DNA of 64,000 nucleotides from an uncultured Acidobacteriota bacterium (lineage in GTDB: Bacteria; Acidobacteriota; Vicinamibacteria; Vicinamibacterales; CAVVIG01): the NCBI GenBank assembly GCA_963724695.1, contig CAVRVW010000008.1, forward strand, positions 237,290-301,289, written 5' to 3'. Shown here piece by piece: positions 43,800 through 54,773 of this stretch. Within the stretch, counting starts at the first letter, position 1. Each line of letters opens with the position of its first letter. The notes beneath the pieces were generated by a model, which saw only the letters and a list, made by a program, of their open reading frames with translations, was not told where the DNA came from and did no database searches. A program made the position numbers and the translations under genes.

Positions 43800-46129
43800 T
43801 ATCTCGCGTTGCCGGAGTTGGGGCCGGTGAACGGCGAAAAGTTGCCGAGCCCGGCGAGCGTGAAGGTCATGAAGAACCGCTTATCGACCGGGTAGGCATA
43901 CCCGCCGCCGTAATCGTAGCGCTGGTACTCGAAGGCGACGCCGCAGCACTGGGTGTTGTAGAAGCCCGACACGCGCTGCTGGTAGATCCGCGACCGCAGG
44001 ACGTCCAGGTTCATCGTGTAAATGGTCCCGATCCGGTTGTCCTGCGTGTGAGCGTTGACGGCGAGGTTGAGCGAGTGATCGAGCCCCTCCGGGTTGTCGA
44101 AGCCCGCAACGCCCTCGATGAAGAAGCGCCGGCTCCACCCGGCCGACGATTGCAAGCGGTTGGTCCAGTTGTACGACCCGTCGACCGACAAGGTGCGCAG
44201 CGCGTACTCCGTGCTGTCGAGCTCGGCCCGAAACGTGGTGTTGAAGGTCGGCGTCGGCGTCGTGCGCATACGCAGCGAGATCGGCGAGTAGTTGCTCGGC
44301 GCCGAGCCGGAGCCTGCGCCAGTGTTGTAGTTCGCGTCGTACTGCGCCGATCTCGCATCTGAGTAGTACGACTGGAAGATCTCGAGGCTGACGATCTCCT
44401 GGGCCTGGCTCGTCTGCCCGATGCGGCGCTTGGCGTACAGACGATTGTTCAGGCCGTAGGTCAGGTTCGTCGCATTGCCGACGATGTTGTCGACGCCGTC
44501 CGTTTGCACGATCCGATCGAACACGTCGATGGAGGAGGTTCGCTGCACGTTGAAAAACGGCTCGATGGAGTGCTTGAAGCGCTCGGCGTAACCGTTGTCC
44601 GGCGTATTCCAGATGCGCGTGAAGACGGGCCCGACGGTCTGGGCGCCGACGGTAAAGTATTGCCTGCTCAGGTTATCCTGGACGATCCGCCGGCGTTCTG
44701 TCACCGGGTCGATGTCCTCACTGTAGCTCCGCGAATACATCGTCTGACGCCATGAGGCCGTCGAGTTGACCGTAAACCACTGCCATCGCTTGAACGGAAA
44801 GCGCACCTGTGGCAGAAAGTCCACGCGCCCAAGGCTCGAGTCGAGGACGTCGTCGCCGGCACGCGACTCGCGGACGAAGTCGGCGTACTCGCCGTTGACC
44901 GAAAAATACAGCCGTGAACCTCGCGTGATCGGGCGTTCGTTGCGCGAGATGGAGATACGCGGCGCATTTCCGGTCAGGACCGAGTGGGTGGCATCGGTGA
45001 AGTACTCCGACCGATCGAACGTGCTGTTCATCGAGTACGAGTTCCAGGCGCCGACGACGTTGGCCCCCACCGTGCGGCTGGTCCGCGACGCGTCGTACAC
45101 GTTCGTATTGAACGTCTGCATGGTCGTGAAGCTCGAGTAGTAGTCAACGCGCGCACGGGCCCGCAACCCCAGGGGCAGCAGTTGCTGCGCGTTGGCGCGG
45201 ACTTCGTAGCTGCGCGAAGCCGGCGTCGAGGTCGCCGGCACTTCATCCTGGCCAAGGGTGGAAGACCGGAAGACGCCTTCGGACCCGGCGCCGAAGTTGT
45301 AACGGTATTCACCCTCCACGCGCTGCCCGAGCTTCGAGTACCACTCGTGCGACAACGTCGCGTCCTGGCTGCGATCGATCGCCCAGAAGAACTCATTGCT
45401 GATGGTGTGCCCGCGCGAGTTCGACGTGCCGTAGCCCGGAATCAGGAAGCCCGTCGACCGGTCGTCTTCCTCGGTCGGGTAGTAGAAGACGGGCAAGTAC
45501 ATCAGCGGCACATCCTTGACCCGGAAGATGGCGTTCCGCAGGAGCGTGTGGTGGTCGACGTGGAGCACGATCGTCGAGGCGCTCAGGTGCCACCGCGGGG
45601 TCGGCTGCACGCAGGTCGAGAATCCTCCGTTGGTGATCTTGTACTTCCGCGGCCCGATCTTCTCGACCGTCTCGCCGAAGAAGTAGACGTCGTTCTCCTG
45701 GTTCGCCAGCCGCGGTGCCACGATAGCGCCCGGCGCCGAAGTCGGGCGCGGGGGCTGGATCGTCGACACGCCGCTCGCGTTGAAGAACGTTCCGAGCCGT
45801 GTCTCCGTGTTCATCTCGGCCCGGTCGGCGGAGATGCGATTCGTGCCCTGGATGAAGACGACGTTGCCGCTGGCCAGCGCGCGCCGCTCCTCGGCGTAAT
45901 ACCAGACCTCGTCCGCGTAGAGCTTGGAATCTTTCGACTCCATCTCGACGTCACCGACGAAGTGCCAGATGTTGTTGTTGATGAGCTCGCGGAAACGGCT
46001 GCTCGTCGTTCCCTCGACCGGAAGCGTCGAGGCGGGCTGGGCCCATGCAAGGGCCGGCGCGACCAGCGCCGCGGCCACCAGCCACGTCAATCGTGCCAGC
46101 GAGGCAAGCGTCGGAGCAGTTGAGGGCAT
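43799..46129 (-). CDS. lptD: LPS-assembly outer membrane protein LptD
   Basis: Start ATG 46129 with signal peptide LARLTWLVAAALVAPALAWAQ. OstA-like N-domain (LYADEVWYYAEERRALASGNVVFIQGTNRISADRAEMN). Large beta-barrel ending in an aromatic-rich strand. Confidence 0.85.
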   Translation of the reverse strand: MPSTAPTLASLARLTWLVAAALVAPALAWAQPASTLPVEGTTSSRFRELINNNIWHFVGDVEMESKDSKLYADEVWYYAEERRALASGNVVFIQGTNRISADRAEMNTETRLGTFFNASGVSTIQPPRPTSAPGAIVAPRLANQENDVYFFGETVEKIGPRKYKITNGGFSTCVQPTPRWHLSASTIVLHVDHHTLLRNAIFRVKDVPLMYLPVFYYPTEEDDRSTGFLIPGYGTSNSRGHTISNEFFWAIDRSQDATLSHEWYSKLGQRVEGEYRYNFGAGSEGVFRSSTLGQDEVPATSTPASRSYEVRANAQQLLPLGLRARARVDYYSSFTTMQTFNTNVYDASRTSRTVGANVVGAWNSYSMNSTFDRSEYFTDATHSVLTGNAPRISISRNERPITRGSRLYFSVNGEYADFVRESRAGDDVLDSSLGRVDFLPQVRFPFKRWQWFTVNSTASWRQTMYSRSYSEDIDPVTERRRIVQDNLSRQYFTVGAQTVGPVFTRIWNTPDNGYAERFKHSIEPFFNVQRTSSIDVFDRIVQTDGVDNIVGNATNLTYGLNNRLYAKRRIGQTSQAQEIVSLEIFQSYYSDARSAQYDANYNTGAGSGSAPSNYSPISLRMRTTPTPTFNTTFRAELDSTEYALRTLSVDGSYNWTNRLQSSAGWSRRFFIEGVAGFDNPEGLDHSLNLAVNAHTQDNRIGTIYTMNLDVLRSRIYQQRVSGFYNTQCCGVAFEYQRYDYGGGYAYPVDKRFFMTFTLAGLGNFSPFTGPNSGNAR

Positions 46130-46166
46130 CGAGAGCAAGACACGGCGGGTGGCAGATCGAAGCGTA

Positions 46167-47444
46167 TCACGAGCCGATCGCCTGCAAGACGTCGCCGAGC
46201 AGAAAGATGGATCCCGCGACGACGATGCGCGGTCCGCGCCGCCACGCGATGTCGAGCGCCTCGGCCGGGTGTGCGGCAATCTCGAGCGGGACCGCTGGCG
46301 CGATGGCCCGTGCGACAGCGATGAGGTCCAGGGGATCGGCCGATCGGGGATTCGAGGTCTTCGTCACCACCAGGAGGCTCGCGTGCGGCACGAGCGCCCG
46401 CAGCATCGCGGCCGCGTCCTTGTCGCGCATCGCCGCGAACACGATTGGCAGAAGGGCCGCGGCGCCGGTCCCGAGAAACGCCGCCAGGGCGCGCGCGCCG
46501 TCCTCGTTGTGTGCGGCATCCAGAAGCACCTCGCGGCCGTCCGGCAGGCGTCGCAAGTCGAGCCGGCCCGGCCACACGACAGCCGAGAGGCCTCGCGCGA
46601 CGGCCGCCGGCGCGACGTGGACGCCGTGGCCCTCGAGCTGCTCCAGCAGGCGGACCGCCACGAGGGCGTTGTCCACCTGGTGGTCGCCGGCGAGGCCCAG
46701 CTCGAGGACGCCGTAATCGTGCGCCGGCGTGCGCAGGCGAATGCGTTGCTCACCCAGCCGCTCGAGGTGGACACCGTCAGCAGCCGCGAGCGTTGTTGCG
46801 CCGCGAGCGGCCACCGTCTCCTCGATAACCTGTCTGGCCCCGGCGCTGACCGGGCCGACAATCAACGGCACGCCTGGCTTCGCGATGCCGGCCTTCTCGT
46901 ACGCGATCGCCTCGATGGTGGACCCGAGGTACTCCTGGTGGTCCAGACCGATGGAGGTGATCGCCGATACCAGGGGCGTGATCACGTTGGTGGCGTCGAG
47001 CCGGCCTCCGAGGCCCACCTCCACGACAGCGACGTCGACCTGGCGCCTGCGGAAGATCTCGAAGGCTGCGGCGGTGGTCACCTCGAAGAAGGTCGGTTGT
47101 GCCTCGAGATGTCCGTCCGCGAGGAGGTGTTCGATGACGCGGCGAACATGCGAGATCGCGTCGCCAAGCTCGTCGCGATCGACCGCTCTGCCGTCGATCG
47201 CAAATCGCTCGGTCAGGTCGACCAGGTGGGGCGAGGTGTAGCGTGCCGAACGATAGCCGGCCGCCGTCAGCGCGAGGTCGACCATGGCGGTCACCGAGCC
47301 TTTGCCGTTGGTGCCGGCCACGTGAATCGTGTGGTAGGCCCGGTCGGGCCGCCCGAGCGCCTCGACGATGGCGGTGATGTTGTCGAGGCCGAACTTGATG
47401 CCGACCTGCGCGAGCCCGAAGAGGTAGCCGAACGGATCCGTCAC
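46167..47444 (-). CDS. folC: Bifunctional folylpolyglutamate synthase / dihydrofolate synthase
   Basis: [12 protein letters not shown]-loop and Mur-ligase-type domains. The ATG overlaps the accD stop (ATGA). Confidence 0.9.
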
Positions 47445-48304
47445 TCAGCTCGCGGGGCCGCGGCGCCCATGAACCGGAGCGCGCGAGCGACGGCGGTCTT
47501 CATCTCGCGCCGGTCGACCACCAGGTCCAGCATGCCCTTTTCGAGGAGGAACTCGGATCGCTGGAACCCTTCGGGCAGCGTCTGCCTGATGGTCTGCTCG
47601 ATGACGCGCGGGCCGGCGAACCCGATGAGCGCCTTCGGCTCCGCGATGTTCAGGTCGCCGAGCATGGCGAAGCTCGCCGTCACCCCTCCGGTCGTCGGAT
47701 CGGTCAGGATCGAGATATACGGCAGCCGCGCACGGTCGAGGCGGGCCAGCGCGCCGCAGATCTTCGCCATCTGCATGAGCGACAGCGCCCCTTCCATCAT
47801 CCGGGCGCCTCCCGACGAGCAGACGATGACGATCGGCTGCTTCTCGTCGATCGCCCGCTCGATGGCCCTCGTGATCTTCTCGCCGACGACCACGCCCATG
47901 CTCCCGCCAATGAAGCCGTACTCCATGGCCGCGACGATGGTCGGCAGCCCGTCGATGGTTCCCGACGCCGTGACGACGGCGTCTTTCAGGCCCGTGGCGT
48001 CGATTCCCGCCTTCAGGCGCGGCCTTGTAGGGCTTGGTGTCGGTGAACTCGAGCGGGTCGGTCGAGACGAGGTCGGAATCGTGCTCGGTCCAGTCGCCGT
48101 CGAAGAGCATGCTGCAGGCGTTCGGTCGCGGTCATCCGGAAGTGATGGGTGCACTTCGGGCAGACGTTCAGATTGGTCGTCGAGATCCTTGTTGTAGATG
48201 CCCTGCGCGCAGCCCGGACACTTGACCCACAGGCCTTCCGGCACCCGGCTGGCCTTGCCCTTCGCCTGGGCAATGGGCTTGCGCGTCTTCTTGAACCACG
48301 CCAT
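47441..48304 (-). pseudogene. accD: Acetyl-CoA carboxylase carboxyltransferase beta subunit AccD, three compensating +1 frame breaks in the zinc-ribbon/N-terminal region as assembled
   Basis: MAWFKK...[15 protein letters not shown] and everything from [10 protein letters not shown] onward ([29 protein letters not shown]) are in one frame. The conserved [20 protein letters not shown] appears only in the 48273 frame. [29 protein letters not shown] appears only in the 48110 frame. Breaks lie near 48169-48181, 48105-48117 and 48011-48026. Confidence 0.9.
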
Positions 48305-48322
48305 CACGGGGGAGCTTAGCAC

Positions 48323-48981
48323 TTACCTCGTGCGTGGCACGTAGTACCGCGTGCCGGCGCCCATCGCGCCGATCTGCTTGATCAGATCGTCGAGCGCCTC
48401 GTCGCTCGCCGTCGAGTCGAACTCCGACGTTTCGACGACCAGAAGGGGCGTCGCCGTCGTAGTGAAAGAAGAAGTGGTGGTAGGCCTCGTTGAGCTCTCG
48501 CAGGTACTCGGGGTCGGGCTCGAGGTGTGCGGCGTCGGGTGCATCCTCCAGGATGCGTTCGCGCCGCAGGCGCAACCGGCGCAGGAGCACGTCGGTGGGC
48601 GCCTGGAGGTACAGCACGAGATCCGGCGGCGGCACGTCCTTGGAAAGCAGATCGAAGAGCCGCTGGTAGATGAAGAGCTCGTTGTCGTCGAGATTCAGAT
48701 ACGCGAAGATCTTGTCTTTGTCGAAGACGTAGTCGCAGACCATGGTCTGGCTGAACAGGTCGGCCTGGCGCAGCGTGGTCTGCTGACGATGGCGGTTGAG
48801 CAGATAGAACAGCTGCGCCTGCAACGCCGCGCCGGGCCGGTCGGCGTAGAAGTCGGCGAGAAACGGATTCTCCTGTTCCTCGAGCACGATGCGTGGCGTC
48901 GAGTCGTGTGCCCAGCCGTTCGGCGAGCGCCGTCTTGCCCGCGCCGATCGGTCCTTCGACCGCGATGTAGCGGAAGTGCAC
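48323..48981 (-). pseudogene. Deoxynucleoside kinase family protein, two +1 frame breaks as assembled
   Basis: P-loop segment (M)HFRYIAVEGPIGAGKTALAERLG is in the 48981 frame. The core IVLEEQENPFLADFYAD...VCDYVFDKDKIFA...LYLQAPTDVLLRRL is in a second frame. The tail LLVVETSEFDSTASDEALDDLIKQI is in the 48544 frame. Breaks lie near 48888-48900 and 48445-48461. Confidence 0.85.
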
Positions 48982-49007
48982 GCGGGCCCGATGATATCAT
49001 CGCGAAC

Positions 49008-51187
49008 GTGACGCGTAAGAGCTTCGCGCCGCCGCTGGCACTGGCGGCTGCGCTCTTGTCGGCGTGTGCGAAACCGCCGGTCGTCGTGCCCGTGGAACCG
49101 GCCGGGCCGTCCTTCGAGCAGAAGATGTCGTGGATCGTGCGGCTCGAAGACGAGCGCTCGCTTCGCGATCCCGCGCCGCCCCCGCCGGCCGACCCCGTGC
49201 CCGCACCGGCGCCGGTCAAGCGCGACGGCGGGCGCCCCGTCGTCGCTGCCCCGCCTCCACCTCCGCCTCCGCCTCCCGATCTCACGCGACTCTCGACCGA
49301 TGCCGAGGCACGCGTTCGCCGGCGCGCCGCGCTGGCGATCGGCCGCGTCGGCCTGGCCGACGGCGTTGACGCCGCTCGTGGCGCTGCTCGCCGACGAGGA
49401 TCCGGAAGTCCGGCAGATGGCCGCCTTCGCGCTCGGCCTCATCGGCGACGCGCGTGCGGCGGATGCGCTGGCAGCGCTTCTCGCCGACCCCTCGCCTCTC
49501 GTCAAGGGCAGCGCCGCAGAGGCGCTGGGGCTCATCGGCGCCACCGGACACGCCAACGCCATCGGCGAGATGGCAGCAGCCATCGTGCAGTCCTCCGCGC
49601 TCGAGCCTCCCCCGTCAGAGGAGGATGACGCGCGGCGCGATACACCGGCAGCCGCATTCCGGCTGGCGATGACCTCGCTCGTGCGGCTGCAAGCGTACGA
49701 ACCGCTGGCCTCCGCGGTGCTCGACAGTGCCGGCAGGCCGCGCGTGCGCTGGTGGCCCGTGGCGTTCGCGCTGCAGCGACTGGAGGACCCGCGCGCAGTG
49801 CCCGCTCTTCTGGCGTTGTCGCAGGAGGCCCATCCATATACGCGCGCCTTTGCGGCCAAGGGGCTCGGCGCGATGGGCAGCGCCAGGAACCCTGAGGTCG
49901 TCCCGACGTTGCTGGCCCTGCTCGAGGGGGGCGATCGATCGGTGGCGATCGAAGCCGCACGATCGCTCGCGCGGCTGGGCGACGCGGTCGGCCGTCCCAC
50001 CGCTCGTCCGCCTGATCCACACGGGCACGACCGATCCGCAGCTGCGTCTCGAAGCGGTCGCCGCCCTTGGCGCGCTGCGCGGCGAGGGCGCCTTCGAGGC
50101 GCTGTTGGACGTGCTCGCTGACCCGCAGCCTCCGGTCCGCGCGGCCGCGCTGCGCGGCCTGGCTGCCGTGGATCGCGAAGGGTTCGTGACCGTGCTCGCC
50201 GGCCTGGACCCGGATCCACACTGGAGCGTCCGTGCGGCGACGGCCGAAGTGCTGGGCCGCTTGCCGCTCGAGAACGCGCTGCCGAGGCTTCAAGGCATGC
50301 TCGAGGACACCGATCAGCGCGTCATTCCCGCCGTCGTGCGAGCGCTCGTCGCGCTCAAGGCGGACGAGGCCGCCAAGATTGCCCTCGAGCGGCTGACGGC
50401 CGAGGACGTGGTCGTCCGCGCGGCGTCGGCCGAGGCTGTCGGCGCGCTCAAGCCGGCGAACGGGGCATCCGCCCTGAGCGATGCGTATCGGCTCGGCCTG
50501 CGGGATCAGACGTATGTGGCACGGGCCGCTGCCCTGGCCGCGCTGGCGCGCTACGGCGCCTCGACACCGATGGTGACCGACGTGTTGACCGAGGCGCTGG
50601 CGGACCGCGACTGGGCCGTTCGCGTTCGGGCCGCAGCACTGCTTCGCGAGCTCGACCCCGCCCTCGACGTGAACGCCCGCATTCGTCCTGCGCCGTTGCG
50701 GCAGCCGCGCGAGTTCTACGAGTCGTCCGCCGTGCTCACGCCGCCGGTGTCCACGCAGGCGTACATCGAGACGGACCGCGGGCTGATTCACATCGAGATG
50801 GCCATGCTCGACGCCCCGCTGACCGTGGACAACTTCATTCGTCTGGCGCGCGCCGGGTTCTTCGACGGCGTCACATTCCACCGCGTCGTGCCGGACTTCG
50901 TGGCGCAGGCCGGCGATCCACGCGGCGATGGCGAGGGGGGCCCCGGCTACACCATCCGCGACGAAATCAACCAGCGGCCCTACCTGCGAGGCACGATCGG
51001 GATGGCGCTCGACTGGGAAGACACGGGAGGCAGCCAGTTCTTCATCACGCACTCGCCGCAGCCGCACCTCGATACCCGGTATACGGTCCTGGGGCGCGTG
51101 CTCTCCGGGATGGAGGTCGTGGACCAGCTTCAGCCGTGGGATGTGATTCGGAGGGTGCGGGTCTGGGATGGGACGACGCTGCGTTGA
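49008..51187 (+). pseudogene. Lipoprotein with Pro-rich linker, HEAT-repeat region and C-terminal cyclophilin-type peptidyl-prolyl isomerase; two +1 frame breaks as assembled
   Basis: GTG 49008 with lipobox LLSAC. HEAT-like units (DPEVRQMAAFALGLIGD, SPLVKGSAAEALGLIG, DWAVRVRAAALL...) are spread over the three forward frames 48351/49066/49727. The C-terminus FHRVVPDFVAQAGDP...GSQFFIT is a cyclophilin. Breaks lie near 49358-49366 and 49984-49993. Confidence 0.85.
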
Positions 51188-51210
51188 AAAACGCTGCGCC
51201 GAAAATTGAA

Positions 51211-51240
51211 GAGGGGGCGACGGCCGCCCCCTCTTTTTCT
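51211..51240. terminator. Rho-independent terminator hairpin, usable from both strands
   Basis: GAGGGGGCG-acggc-CGCCCCCTC followed by TTTTTCTT on the plus strand (after the PPIase gene). On the minus strand the same hairpin follows the micro-ORF stop and is followed by TTCAATTTTC. Confidence 0.7.
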
Positions 51241-51256
51241 TGCGGGCGAGGTCGGC

Positions 51257-51307
51257 TTAGCGCTTCTTGCCGGCCTTCTTCTTCCCGCCCTTGGCTTTCT
51301 TCGCCAT
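51257..51307 (-). CDS. Candidate 16-codon polybasic micro-ORF (MAKKAKGGKKKAGKKR)
   Basis: ATG 51307 is preceded by AAGGGGGGGA (complementary to the anti-SD with one G-U) 9-12 nt upstream. TAA at 51257-51259 is followed by the terminator hairpin. Too short for the ORF track. Coding status unproven. Confidence 0.35.
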   Translation of the reverse strand: MAKKAKGGKKKAGKKR

Positions 51308-51535
51308 TGTCTGTTATCCCCCCCTTCAGTTGGGATGTCTTGCGAGAGCGCTCACGACATCGATCCTGTGGCTGCCGCCTGGCACGCGCACTCGACATCG
51401 GCGCCCTGCGCACCGAGGCACCACTCGCTGCTCTATGGTCCTGGGTCTCAGCAGCGAGAGGGTGAGTTGGAAGGCTTTCGGCCTTTCTTCCTCACAAGGA
51501 GTGGCCTGAGTTGACCACCCTCATACCAGATGTAG

Positions 51536-51563
51536 ATTATGGTTGAGAAAATCTTGATGTCAA
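51536..51563 (-). promoter_or_regulatory. Putative sigma-70 promoter (minus strand) driving the 51.2-51.5 kb small transcript
   Basis: Minus strand: TTGACA (51563-51558), 16-nt spacer, CATAAT (51541-51536), in the most AT-rich stretch of the window. Confidence 0.45.
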
Positions 51564-51666
51564 GCACAAAAGCGATGATTTTGTCAAAATTTTCTCGGCG
51601 CTGCACGAAGGATGCGGGCCGCGCGTCGCGGACTCTCGCACGATCCGCAGCCGCGCAGGAAATCGA

Positions 51667-52830
51667 GTGACGCCGTTTCGTTTTGCGCTCACTCACACCG
51701 ACGGCCGCGCGCGTCGCGGTCGCATGGTGACGCCTCACGGCGACATCGAGACTCCCGCCTTCATGCCCGTCGGCACGCAGGGCGCGGTGAAAGGTGTGAC
51801 GCATCGCGATCTCGCGGACGTCGGCGCCGCAATCCTGCTGGCCAACACCTATCACCTGTACCTCCGGCCGGGAGACGATCTCATCGCGCGCATGGGCGGC
51901 CTGCACCGGTTCATCGGCTGGGACAAGCCGATCCTCACCGACAGCGGCGGCTATCAGGTGTTCAGCCTCGCGTCGCGCAGGACGATCACCGAAGAGGGCG
52001 CGCGCTTCCGCTCGCACCTGGACGGCTCCGCCCATCTGCTCACGCCGGAGAAGGCCACCGACATCCAGGCCCAGCTCGGTTCGGATATCGCGATGGTCCT
52101 CGACGAGTGCCTCGCGCACCCGGCGACGACCGACACCGCGCGGGTGTCGATGGAGCGCACGAGCCGGTGGGCACGGCGGGCTCGCGAGCGGTGGCTCCTC
52201 CTCGGGGATTCACCGCCGATGCCCGGCGTCGTTGTCACCAACCCCGGACAGGCGCAGTTCGGCATCGTCCAGGGGAGTGTGTTCGCGGACTTGCGGCGCG
52301 AGAGCGCGGAGGCGACGACTGCGGTCGGATTCGAGGGATATGCGATTGGCGGTCTGAGCGTGGGAGAGCCGCCCGAGGTCATGTACGAGATGGTCGGTTC
52401 GACGACGCCCTGGCTCCCCGAGGATCGTCCGCGCTACCTGATGGGAGCGGGCACCCCCGAGGACCTGGTGGAGGCCGTGGCCCGGGGCGTGGACCTGTTC
52501 GACTGTGTGCTGCCGACGCGAAATGCCCGGAACGGACAGCTGTTCACGGCCAACGGCCGCATCAATATTAAGAACCTGCGATACGCCGAGGATTCGCGGC
52601 CCCCGGATCCGGACTGCGGATGCTACACGTGCCGCTCCGTGTCACGGGCCTATCTCCGTCATCTCTTTCTGGCGGACGAACGGGGTGCGGCGACCCTTAA
52701 CACGTTGCATAATTTGCACTTTTACCTTGACACGCTCAGCAGGATTAGGGACGCTATAGTGTTTGGGCGGTTTGAGAATTTCAGGCTCGCGTACCATCAG
52801 CGCTTGTCCCGCCAGCCAGACGATCCATGA
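51667..52830 (+). CDS. tgt: Queuine tRNA-ribosyltransferase
   Basis: 387-aa ORF (GTG start). TPAFMPVGTQGAVKG, LTDSGGYQVFSL, YAIGGLSVGE and the zinc site CGCYTC...H. Confidence 0.95.
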   Translation: MTPFRFALTHTDGRARRGRMVTPHGDIETPAFMPVGTQGAVKGVTHRDLADVGAAILLANTYHLYLRPGDDLIARMGGLHRFIGWDKPILTDSGGYQVFSLASRRTITEEGARFRSHLDGSAHLLTPEKATDIQAQLGSDIAMVLDECLAHPATTDTARVSMERTSRWARRARERWLLLGDSPPMPGVVVTNPGQAQFGIVQGSVFADLRRESAEATTAVGFEGYAIGGLSVGEPPEVMYEMVGSTTPWLPEDRPRYLMGAGTPEDLVEAVARGVDLFDCVLPTRNARNGQLFTANGRINIKNLRYAEDSRPPDPDCGCYTCRSVSRAYLRHLFLADERGAATLNTLHNLHFYLDTLSRIRDAIVFGRFENFRLAYHQRLSRQPDDP

Positions 52831-53168
52831 TGATGCTCGTGACCCCCGTGTTCGCCATGGGCGCGCCGCCGCAAGGTGGGAGCCCCTGGCTGCAGTTCGT
52901 GCCGTTCGTGCTGGTGCTCGCGATCTTCTACTTCATCATTCTTCTGCCGATGAAGCGGAAGCAGCAGAAGGTCCAGACGTTTCTCGATGGTCTCAAGGTC
53001 GGCGACCGGATCGTCACGACCGGGGGCATCTACGGGCAGGTGACGCGGCTGGGCGAGCAGAGCCTGCAGATTCAGATCGCGGACAAGATCAAGATTGAAG
53101 TGGCACGCGCCGCCATCGGCGGCTATCAGGGGCAGGCGCCCGTCGTCGAGCCCGCCAACCCGCAGTAA
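52827..53168 (+). CDS. yajC: Preprotein translocase subunit YajC
   Basis: 113-aa ORF with one TM helix and KVGDRIVTTGGIYGQV. ATGA overlap with tgt. Precedes secD. Confidence 0.9.
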   Translation: MMMLVTPVFAMGAPPQGGSPWLQFVPFVLVLAIFYFIILLPMKRKQQKVQTFLDGLKVGDRIVTTGGIYGQVTRLGEQSLQIQIADKIKIEVARAAIGGYQGQAPVVEPANPQ

Positions 53169-53174
53169 ACAGCC

Positions 53175-54773
53175 ATGGCCAATTTGCGCTGGAAGATCAT
53201 CCTCATCGTCGTCGTGCTGATCGCCTTCGCTGCGGTCGGTGTCTACCCGATCCTGGCGGGGCGCTACGGCCTGCCGGCGCCCGGCTGGCTGACGGCGCGC
53301 CAGCTCAAGCTCGGGCTGGACCTGAAGGGCGGGGTGCACCTCGTCCTGCGCGTCAACACCGACGATGCCCTGCTGCTGCAGTCCGAAGGCGAAATGGAGC
53401 GGCTGCGCGAGCGGCTCGCCACCGCCAGCATTCAGAGCACCAGCCTGACGATCGTGAGCCCGCGAGAGTTCAGGGTCGAGGGCATTCCACAGAACCAGGA
53501 GGCCGCGTTCCGCGATGCCCTCACCGAGGTCGAGGTCAACTTCGATCGCAGCTCGGGCACCCAGGGCACCTACACGTTCACGATGAAGCCCGGTGTGCAG
53601 GCCACGCTGCGGGACCAGGCCGTGGTGCAGACCCGCCAGACGATCGAGCGCCGCGTGAACGAGCTCGGCGTCACCGAGCCGAGCATCGCACAGCAGGGCG
53701 CGGCGGGCGACCAGATCCTCGTGCAGCTGCCGGGCGTGACGGACGTGAACCGGGCGAAGGAGATCATCCGGTCGACCGGGCTCCTCGAGCTGAAGATCGT
53801 CGAGAACGGGCCGGTCGCCTCGCGCGAAGCGCTGCTCATCAACGGTCAGGAGCCGCCCGGCATGGAGATCGTGCCCGGCGCCAGCGGGATTCCCGGCGAA
53901 GCGGCGACGACGGTGTATTACCTGGTGCGACGGGTGGCCGCGGTCAGCGGCGCGGATCTTCGGAGTGCACGGCCCTCGCTCGACCAGAACGGCCGCCCCG
54001 CGGTCAGCTTCAGCCTCAACTCGGACGGCGCCCGCAAGTTCGGCACCGTGACGGGCCAGAACATCGGTCGCGCGCTCGCGATCATCCTGGACGGCCGCGT
54101 CCACTCGGCGCCGACGATCAACGGGCGCATCACCAACGAGGGCATCATCGAGAACATGGGCTCCCAGGAGGAAGTGGCCGACCTGTCCGTCGTCCTCAAC
54201 TCCGGTTCGCTGGGGGCGTCGCTGACCTACCTCGAAGAGCGCACGATCGGCCCGAGCCTCGGCGCGGACTCGATTCGCGCCGGTGTGTCGGCGTCTCTCG
54301 CCGGCCTGCTGCTCATCATCGTGTTCCTGCTCGTCTACTACAAACTGTCCGGGGTGAATGCCATCATCGCCCTGGTGTTCAACCTGATCATCCTGCTCGG
54401 CCTGATGGCCTACATGGGCGCCGTCATGACCCTGCCGGGCATCGCCGGATTCATCCTGACCATCGGCCTCGGCGTGGACTCGAACGTGCTGATCTTCGAG
54501 CGCATCAAGGAGGAGCTCGAGGCGCAGCGCCCCGTCCGCCAGGCGATCAATGCCGGGTTCAGCCGCGTGTTCCTGACGCTCCTTGACACGCACATCGCTG
54601 CGCTCATCGCCGCGGCCTTCCTGTTCCAGTTCGGTACCGGCCCGATTCGTGGATTTGCCGTGACGCTGTCGGTCGGCCTCGTGTCGAACCTGTTCACCTC
54701 GACGTTCGTGTCGAAGACGCTGTTCGAGCTGGTGTTGAGCAAGCGCCACCAGACCGCGGCGTTGTCCATCTAG
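53175..54773 (+). CDS. secD: Protein translocase subunit SecD
   Basis: 532-aa ORF. LKLGLDLKGGVHL, a large periplasmic domain and a C-terminal 5-TM bundle with GIAGFILTIGLGVDSNVLIFERIKEE. Confidence 0.95.
   Translation: MANLRWKIILIVVVLIAFAAVGVYPILAGRYGLPAPGWLTARQLKLGLDLKGGVHLVLRVNTDDALLLQSEGEMERLRERLATASIQSTSLTIVSPREFRVEGIPQNQEAAFRDALTEVEVNFDRSSGTQGTYTFTMKPGVQATLRDQAVVQTRQTIERRVNELGVTEPSIAQQGAAGDQILVQLPGVTDVNRAKEIIRSTGLLELKIVENGPVASREALLINGQEPPGMEIVPGASGIPGEAATTVYYLVRRVAAVSGADLRSARPSLDQNGRPAVSFSLNSDGARKFGTVTGQNIGRALAIILDGRVHSAPTINGRITNEGIIENMGSQEEVADLSVVLNSGSLGASLTYLEERTIGPSLGADSIRAGVSASLAGLLLIIVFLLVYYKLSGVNAIIALVFNLIILLGLMAYMGAVMTLPGIAGFILTIGLGVDSNVLIFERIKEELEAQRPVRQAINAGFSRVFLTLLDTHIAALIAAAFLFQFGTGPIRGFAVTLSVGLVSNLFTSTFVSKTLFELVLSKRHQTAALSI

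What the first reader, a model, noticed from the sequence alone, without database searches (positions are those of the whole stretch)
48011..48181. Cryptic triple frameshift in accD: the ORF looks intact but about 55 codons, including half of the zinc ribbon, are out of frame
The listed 293-aa ORF (47441-48322) has no stop. Yet residues ...[58 protein letters not shown]... are Ser/Pro/Thr-rich nonsense. The conserved AccD segments [20 protein letters not shown] (the second CxxC of the C4 zinc ribbon) and [29 protein letters not shown] are present in the other two frames (ORFs 48013-48273 and 47445-48110). Three single-nt insertions within about 170 nt sum to +3 and return to the original frame. 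A gene caller would therefore report an apparently full-length accD lacking two of the four zinc ligands. This is a good sentinel for undetected errors elsewhere, because frame-restoring indels in stop-poor GC-rich DNA are invisible to ORF length checks.
Basis: partly seen in the sequence, partly recalled or inferred. Interest (0 to 1): 0.6.

Follow-up and report, generated by a model that had tools for sequence, protein, structure and literature searches.

The report
Assembly insertion errors scrambling accD
Three spurious extra bases in a draft genome scramble 54 codons of the essential fatty-acid gene accD without closing its reading frame; this is an artefact of an error-rich assembly, not biology.

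Summary
The accD ORF (minus strand, 47441-48304) is open. Residues 42-95 are read out of frame, and the conserved AccD text, including the second CxxC of the zinc ribbon, lies in the other two frames.

Two independent public metagenome contigs are 99.1% identical to the window. They lack exactly three single bases, at 48182, 48114 and 48020, and they encode an intact 286-aa AccD. With those bases ignored, the window's AccD matches theirs at 285 of 286 residues.

Across 9.3 kb the only indels are seven one-base G/C insertions in the window. All lie within 48020-49985 and hit accD, the dNK gene and a HEAT/PPIase gene.

Genome-wide, my coding-frame HMM finds 2,945 frame switches with no stop nearby (62 per 100 kb). 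Three better relatives give 6-8.5 per 100 kb. The switches are 80% insertion-like, clustered, and not shared with the congener.

The assembly has 12 contigs and is 85% complete. The most likely cause is residual consensus errors in a draft MAG.

Biological interest is low. The locus is useful as a quality warning.

The parts
47441..48304 (-). accD gene (acetyl-CoA carboxylase carboxyltransferase beta subunit). The ORF is open as it stands. It is the only accD in the genome.
   Evidence: With three bases ignored it matches the conspecific AccD at 285 of 286 residues. The conspecific protein aligns end to end with E. coli AccD, PDB 2F9Y_B.
48182..48182 (.). Extra base 1 (G on the + strand, C in the gene sense, GATCT[C]GACG). 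It shifts reading out of the true frame just before the second CxxC.
   Evidence: Absent in L069 and L070 and in G001. It is not a homopolymer extension.
48115..48181 (-). Stretch whose true reading ([22 protein letters not shown], the second half of the C4 zinc ribbon) is in the +1 frame of the ORF.
48114..48114 (.). Extra base 2 (G on the + strand, C in the gene sense, CTG[C]AGCATG).
48021..48113 (-). Stretch whose true reading ([31 protein letters not shown]) is in the +2 frame of the ORF.
   Evidence: The HMM calls a separate frame at 48018-48123.
48020..48020 (.). Extra base 3 (C on the + strand, G in the gene sense, AAGGCC[G]CGCCTG). It returns reading to the original frame.
48323..48981 (-). 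Deoxynucleoside kinase (dNK) gene, broken by two more one-base insertions at 48456 and 48892.
   Evidence: It matches the conspecific protein at 213 of 218 residues when the two bases are ignored.
49008..51187 (+). HEAT-repeat / peptidyl-prolyl isomerase gene (725 aa in the conspecific contig), broken by one-base insertions at 49373 and 49985.
   Evidence: It matches at 719 of 725 residues when the two bases are ignored.
46167..47444 (-). folC, intact. Its GTG start overlaps the accD TGA stop (GTGA).

Best explanation
The three extra bases in accD are errors of the assembled consensus, not features of the organism's DNA. The record is a highly contiguous but error-rich draft genome: 12 contigs, 4.76 Mb and only 85% estimated completeness. 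It is most likely a metagenome-assembled genome built from noisy long reads, with patches that were never polished. accD lies in one such 2-kb patch (48020-49985). That patch holds seven spurious single G/C insertions, about 1 per 280 nt, spread over three adjacent genes. In 66%-GC DNA, off-frame stop codons are rare. The three accD insertions add up to +3, so the ORF stays open and hides the damage. The real gene encodes an ordinary 286-aa AccD with a complete C4 zinc ribbon. Shown here: the insertions, their absence from near-identical sequences, and the genome-wide excess and clustering of frame breaks. Inferred: the sequencing platform and the 'unpolished patch' cause.
For: (1) Two contigs from other public samples (NCBI GCA_025450795.1 JANRHI010016942.1 and JGI 3300035693 Ga0373473_0022390) are 99.1% identical to the window. 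They lack exactly the three bases and were called as an intact 286-aa AccD with Zn_ribbon_ACC and Carboxyl_trans. (2) With the three bases ignored, the window's AccD matches theirs at 285 of 286 residues. The out-of-frame text has therefore been kept without change, which is not expected of a stretch that has really been translated in another frame for any length of time. (3) Across 9,281 aligned bases the only indels are seven one-base insertions in the window, all within 2 kb. The 77 substitutions are spread evenly. (4) Genome-wide there are 2,945 stop-less same-strand frame switches (61.9 per 100 kb), against 6.2, 7.0 and 8.5 per 100 kb in three better relatives. Of these, 80% are insertion-like. 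They are strongly clustered: variance/mean is 8.8, and 28.5% of 5-kb bins are empty against 4.5% expected under Poisson. (5) My HMM recovered six of the seven independently verified indels in this patch, each within 17 nt. (6) The congener G001 (9 contigs, 81% complete) has the same excess, but none of its 30 mapped events coincides with any of the window's 10. The breaks are therefore not inherited. Its accD is intact. (7) This is the only accD in the genome, and AccD is essential for fatty-acid synthesis (established knowledge). (8) Indel-caused frameshifts are a known problem of long-read assemblies (10.1101/2021.08.23.457338; PMC9262707).
Against: The comparison contigs differ from the window at 0.9% of sites, so they come from another strain; strictly they show only that the insertions are specific to this record. 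Six of the seven insertions are not homopolymer extensions and all are G or C. This is not the classic nanopore homopolymer-deletion signature, so the platform and the cause remain uncertain. The HMM counts come from a model I built myself and validated only at this locus.
Confidence: 0.95

Rival explanations
1. The three insertions are real mutations of this strain: a naturally compensated triple frameshift. The result would be an AccD in which the second half of the zinc ribbon and the following 30 residues are replaced by a Ser/Pro/Thr-rich linker.
For: The ORF is open and the carboxyltransferase domain downstream is untouched. The comparison contigs come from a slightly different strain, at 0.9% divergence.
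Against: This would need three same-direction insertions within 162 nt of the only accD copy, and each intermediate would be a knock-out. The 'abandoned' frames still encode the conspecific protein perfectly. The two neighbouring genes carry four more insertions of the same kind that do break their ORFs. About 2,900 similar events occur genome-wide and none is shared with the congener. All 28 relatives whose accD clears the family cut-off keep it in a single frame, and the 19 whose protein start was printed show both CxxC motifs or near variants.
Confidence: 0.03
2. The artefact arose at a later step, not from raw long-read noise. Possible sources are mis-polishing, a consensus built over a mixture of strains, or a merge of assemblies.
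For: Six of the seven insertions are outside homopolymers and all are G or C. The errors are sharply clustered, with clean flanks. Event density rises with local GC content, Spearman 0.23.
Against: None of this can be told apart from unpolished long-read consensus without the reads and the assembly methods. The GC trend is confounded, because the detector is more sensitive at higher GC.
Confidence: 0.2
3. The gene is decoded by programmed +1 ribosomal frameshifting or transcriptional slippage at three sites.
For: All three shifts go in the same (+1) direction.
Against: There are no slippery or homopolymeric runs at the sites (GATCT[C]GAC, CTG[C]AGC, GCC[G]CGC) and no in-frame stop to stall on. 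The sites are absent from sequences that are 99% identical and from all relatives examined.
Confidence: 0.005

Closest known systems
Indel-induced frameshifts in long-read (meta)genome assemblies, the problem that frameshift-correction tools such as proovframe address (10.1101/2021.08.23.457338; PMC9262707)
   Same: Single-base indels break or shift reading frames. There is a genome-wide excess, lowered marker-gene completeness despite high contiguity, and no such indels in short-read contigs of the same population.
   Different: Here the errors are 80% insertions and mostly fall outside homopolymers. Three of them cancel out, so the ORF stays open. The sequencing platform of this record is not known to me.
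Bacterial AccD, the acetyl-CoA carboxylase carboxyltransferase beta subunit (E. coli, PDB 2F9Y chain B)
   Same: The conspecific protein aligns over residues 1-284 with E. coli AccD at E = 4e-97. This includes both CxxC pairs of the N-terminal zinc ribbon. As in E. coli, accD is followed by folC (the E. coli gene order is from my own knowledge).
   Different: As written in this record, the ORF lacks the second CxxC and about 30 further residues. This is an artefact of the record, not a variant of the protein.

Membership tests
AccD (NCBIfam TIGR00515; Pfam Zn_ribbon_ACC PF17848 + Carboxyl_trans PF01039) | Carboxyltransferase domain | tested here: met
   PF01039, E = 2.5e-22, residues 105-238 of the ORF as it stands.
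AccD (NCBIfam TIGR00515; Pfam Zn_ribbon_ACC PF17848 + Carboxyl_trans PF01039) | N-terminal C4 zinc ribbon (CxxC ... CxxC) in a single reading frame | tested here: not met
   As it stands, only profile positions 1-19 of 26 match (27.7 bits) and the second CxxC is missing. Read across the three frames, positions 1-26 of 26 match (45.9 bits). The missing CPKC is present in the +1 frame.
AccD (NCBIfam TIGR00515; Pfam Zn_ribbon_ACC PF17848 + Carboxyl_trans PF01039) | Score above the curated equivalog cut-off (317.45 bits) | tested here: not met
   The score is 308.4 bits for the main frame, plus a separate 23.5-bit piece in another frame. Of 30 relatives, 28 score about 389-412 bits.
Assembly/consensus indel error | Absent from independent, near-identical sequences of the same population | tested here: met
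   L069 and L070 are 99.1% identical and lack all three bases, and four further bases in the neighbouring genes.
Assembly/consensus indel error | Part of a genome-wide excess of frame breaks, not inherited by relatives | tested here: met
   The rate is 61.9 per 100 kb against 6-8.5 per 100 kb in controls. None of 30 congener events coincides with the window's.
Assembly/consensus indel error | Extra bases not supported by accurate reads of the same sample | not testable with these tools

The most novel reading that the evidence does not exclude
The strain really carries a triple, frame-restoring insertion in its only accD. It would then live with a carboxyltransferase beta subunit whose zinc ribbon has two of its four cysteine ligands replaced by a Ser/Pro/Thr-rich linker. 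That would imply the zinc domain is dispensable in this lineage.
Probability: 0.02. Interest if true: 0.6.

Novelty: not a real feature. Interest (0 to 1): 0.08.

Why it matters
This has no biological significance in itself: the organism almost certainly has an ordinary AccD. The value is practical. The locus is a clean, independently verified case in which ORF length and the absence of stop codons fail as quality checks in GC-rich DNA. It also flags the whole assembly, and its same-genus neighbour, as carrying on the order of 2,600 or more indel errors. About 250 of these may be hidden inside ORFs that remain open. Any unusual protein, pseudogene, 'novel domain' or missing-marker claim from this genome should first be checked against frame errors.

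Tried and rejected
- **Pattern scans:** I made exact-pattern scans of metagenome contigs and genome contigs, with a pattern that accepts the second site with or without the extra base. Both found nothing.
- **Look-up of the scrambled protein:** The ATG-start form, the GTG-start form typed with an initial M, and the DNA-reference form are not in the collection. This leaves open how the depositors' gene caller treated the gene.
- **Third conspecific contig:** L071 covers only the last 68 codons of accD and does not reach the shifted stretch.
- **Raw blastn gap counts against the congener:** These gave 285 gaps. They were too noisy at 82-85% identity, and both genomes are error-prone, so I replaced them with the HMM and the 99%-identical contigs.
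- **A fourth indel near the 3' end:** One appeared against G001 (after 47456). The conspecific contigs do not support it, so it is a difference on G001's side.
- **Programmed frameshifting:** Rejected for lack of slippery sites and because the sites are absent from near-identical genes.

Full report
**What is in the sequence**

On the minus strand an ORF runs from 48322 (GTG) or 48304 (ATG, MAWFKK...) to the TGA at 47441-47443 with no internal stop. Its first 41 residues and its last 192 residues (96-287) are good AccD. Residues 42-95 read [54 protein letters not shown].

The +1 frame of the same DNA reads ...[20 protein letters not shown]. The +2 frame reads [29 protein letters not shown].

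Family models see the damage:
- Pfam Zn_ribbon_ACC matches only profile positions 1-19 of 26 in the ORF as it stands. It matches all 26 in a reading spliced across the frames.
- NCBIfam TIGR00515 gives 308.4 bits, below its 317.45 cut-off, plus a separate 23.5-bit piece in another frame.
- Of 30 relatives from the same order, 28 score about 389-412 bits in a single frame.
- No other accD copy exists in the 4.76-Mb assembly. The weaker hits are other carboxyltransferase-family genes scoring far below the accD cut-off.

**Exact anatomy**

Against the same-genus genome G001 (87% nt identity over accD) the window has three one-base insertions and no other frame-relevant difference within the shifted stretch.

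The sharper comparison came from the neighbouring folC protein. Its 90%-identity cluster holds three proteins from other public samples. Two of their contigs reach the shifted part of accD:
- L069: NCBI GCA_025450795.1, contig JANRHI010016942.1
- L070: JGI 3300035693, Ga0373473_0022390

Both were called there as a 286-aa protein with Zn_ribbon_ACC and Carboxyl_trans.

Their accD DNA is 99.1-99.2% identical to the window's. They lack exactly three bases: window 48182, 48114 and 48020. In the gene sense these read GATCT[C]GACG, CTG[C]AGCATG and AAGGCC[G]CGCCTG.

The shifted stretch is 162 nt long. In it, 53 true residues ([53 protein letters not shown]) are replaced by 54 scrambled ones. With the three bases ignored, the window's AccD equals the conspecific protein at 285 of 286 positions. 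That protein aligns over residues 1-284 with E. coli AccD (PDB 2F9Y_B, E = 4e-97), including both CxxC pairs.

**The neighbourhood**

Over the 9,281 bases that L069 shares with the window (44171-53451), the only indels are seven one-base insertions in the window. All are G or C and all lie within 48020-49985:
- three in accD
- two in the dNK gene (48456, 48892)
- two in a HEAT-repeat/PPIase gene (49373, 49985)

In those two neighbouring genes the insertions do break the ORFs. Ignoring the insertions restores 213 of 218 and 719 of 725 residues of identity to the conspecific proteins.

The 77 substitutions are spread evenly along the 9.3 kb. The substitutions therefore look like ordinary strain divergence, while the indels form a local cluster. 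Six of the seven insertions are not homopolymer extensions.

**The whole genome**

The assembly has 12 contigs and 4.76 Mb, with estimated completeness of only 85%. I trained a three-periodic second-order Markov model on the genome's long ORFs. I then ran a 7-state Viterbi segmentation: six coding frames plus non-coding.

I counted same-strand coding-to-coding frame switches with no stop codon of the upstream frame within 45 nt. A real gene boundary should not produce such a switch.

| Genome | Sequence scanned | Stop-less switches | Rate per 100 kb |
|---|---|---|---|
| G000 (this genome) | 4.76 Mb | 2,945 | 61.9 |
| G028 (single-contig genome) | 400 kb | 25 | 6.2 |
| G014 | 200 kb | 14 | 7.0 |
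| G007 | 200 kb | 17 | 8.5 |
| G001 (same genus, 9 contigs, 81% complete) | 80 kb | 47 | 58.8 |

Further properties of the G000 events:
- **Direction:** 80% are insertion-like (2,366 against 579).
- **Clustering:** Variance/mean is 8.8 in 20-kb bins. Of 5-kb bins, 28.5% are empty against 4.5% expected under Poisson.
- **Validation at this locus:** Inside the stretch verified with L069, the detector's six stop-less events each lie within 17 nt of a verified insertion. It missed only the 67-nt segment.
- **Not inherited:** In the 52 kb that align between the window and G001, none of G001's 30 events coincides with any of the window's 10.
- **Hidden events:** Candidate 'hidden' events are those where the frame is left and regained while the original ORF stays open. 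There are 259 of them (54 per Mb), against 0-5 per Mb in controls and 75 per Mb in G001. This is a rough, model-based estimate.
- **GC trend:** Event density rises with local GC (Spearman 0.23). The detector is also more sensitive at higher GC, so I draw no conclusion from this.

**Interpretation**

The extra bases are consensus errors of an error-rich draft assembly (confidence 0.95). The combination of high contiguity, low completeness, insertion-dominated indels and sharp clustering fits a long-read metagenome-assembled genome with unpolished patches. That last step is inference, because I know neither the platform nor the pipeline. The non-homopolymer G/C insertions are not the textbook nanopore signature. 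Frameshifts from small indels are a well-described problem of such assemblies (10.1101/2021.08.23.457338; PMC9262707).

The ORF stays open for two reasons: the three shifts add up to +3, and off-frame stops are rare at 66.6% GC.

A real compensated triple frameshift is very unlikely, for these reasons:
- Each intermediate would inactivate the only accD.
- The abandoned frames still spell the conspecific protein exactly.
- The same kind of insertion wrecks the two adjacent genes.
- All 28 relatives whose accD clears the family cut-off keep it in a single frame, and the 19 whose protein start was printed show both CxxC motifs or near variants.

Programmed frameshifting is excluded by the lack of slippery sites and by the near-identical genes that lack the sites.

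**Earlier notes of this scan**

Earlier notes on other windows of the same genome report dense, clustered frameshifts and a compensated pair in glcE. My genome-wide counts agree with that picture. I did not re-examine those windows.

**Limits**

- No reads could be inspected.
- The scrambled protein is not in the large protein collection in either M-initial form tested, nor as the DNA-reference form, which may have been read with V first.

**Verdict**

The feature is an artefact of the record. Biological interest is low, and its value is as a quality flag for this assembly and its congener.

Noticed in passing
window 48323-48981 (-): The deoxynucleoside kinase gene is split over three frames by single-base insertions at 48456 and 48892. 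The conspecific contig has an intact 218-aa gene.
   Followed up: yes
window 49008-51187 (+): A HEAT-repeat / peptidyl-prolyl isomerase gene (725 aa in the conspecific contig) is split by single-base insertions at 49373 and 49985.
   Followed up: yes
window ~9466, ~13386, ~38764, ~57837, ~58353: The HMM finds five further stop-less same-strand frame switches elsewhere in the window. They are probably more indel errors. I did not check them against near-identical contigs.
   Followed up: no
G001 (same genus), region C5:255000-334999 (L025-L028): The only other genome of the genus is equally rich in frame breaks (58.8 per 100 kb, 39 insertion-like against 8 deletion-like), at positions different from the window's. 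It probably comes from the same kind of data or pipeline.
   Followed up: partly
G004:C22:332413-333218: accD of this family-level relative (64% complete, 30 contigs) is split into two pieces in the family search. It looks like another frameshifted assembly.
   Followed up: no
G027 (same order, 4 contigs, 99% complete): No accD match reaches the cut-off. The best hit is only a weak (49-bit) partial carboxyltransferase-family match. The gene may be truly absent or divergent, or it may lie in a masked stretch.
   Followed up: no
window 47441-47444: The accD stop and the folC start overlap as GTGA. The gene order accD-folC is the same as in E. coli, which suggests translational coupling.
   Followed up: partly
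window 48020-49985: All seven verified insertions are G or C, and six of seven are not homopolymer extensions. Several interrupt short G runs with a C (gcg[C]gg, atg[C]gtg, acg[C]ggt). This error signature is unexplained.
   Followed up: partly
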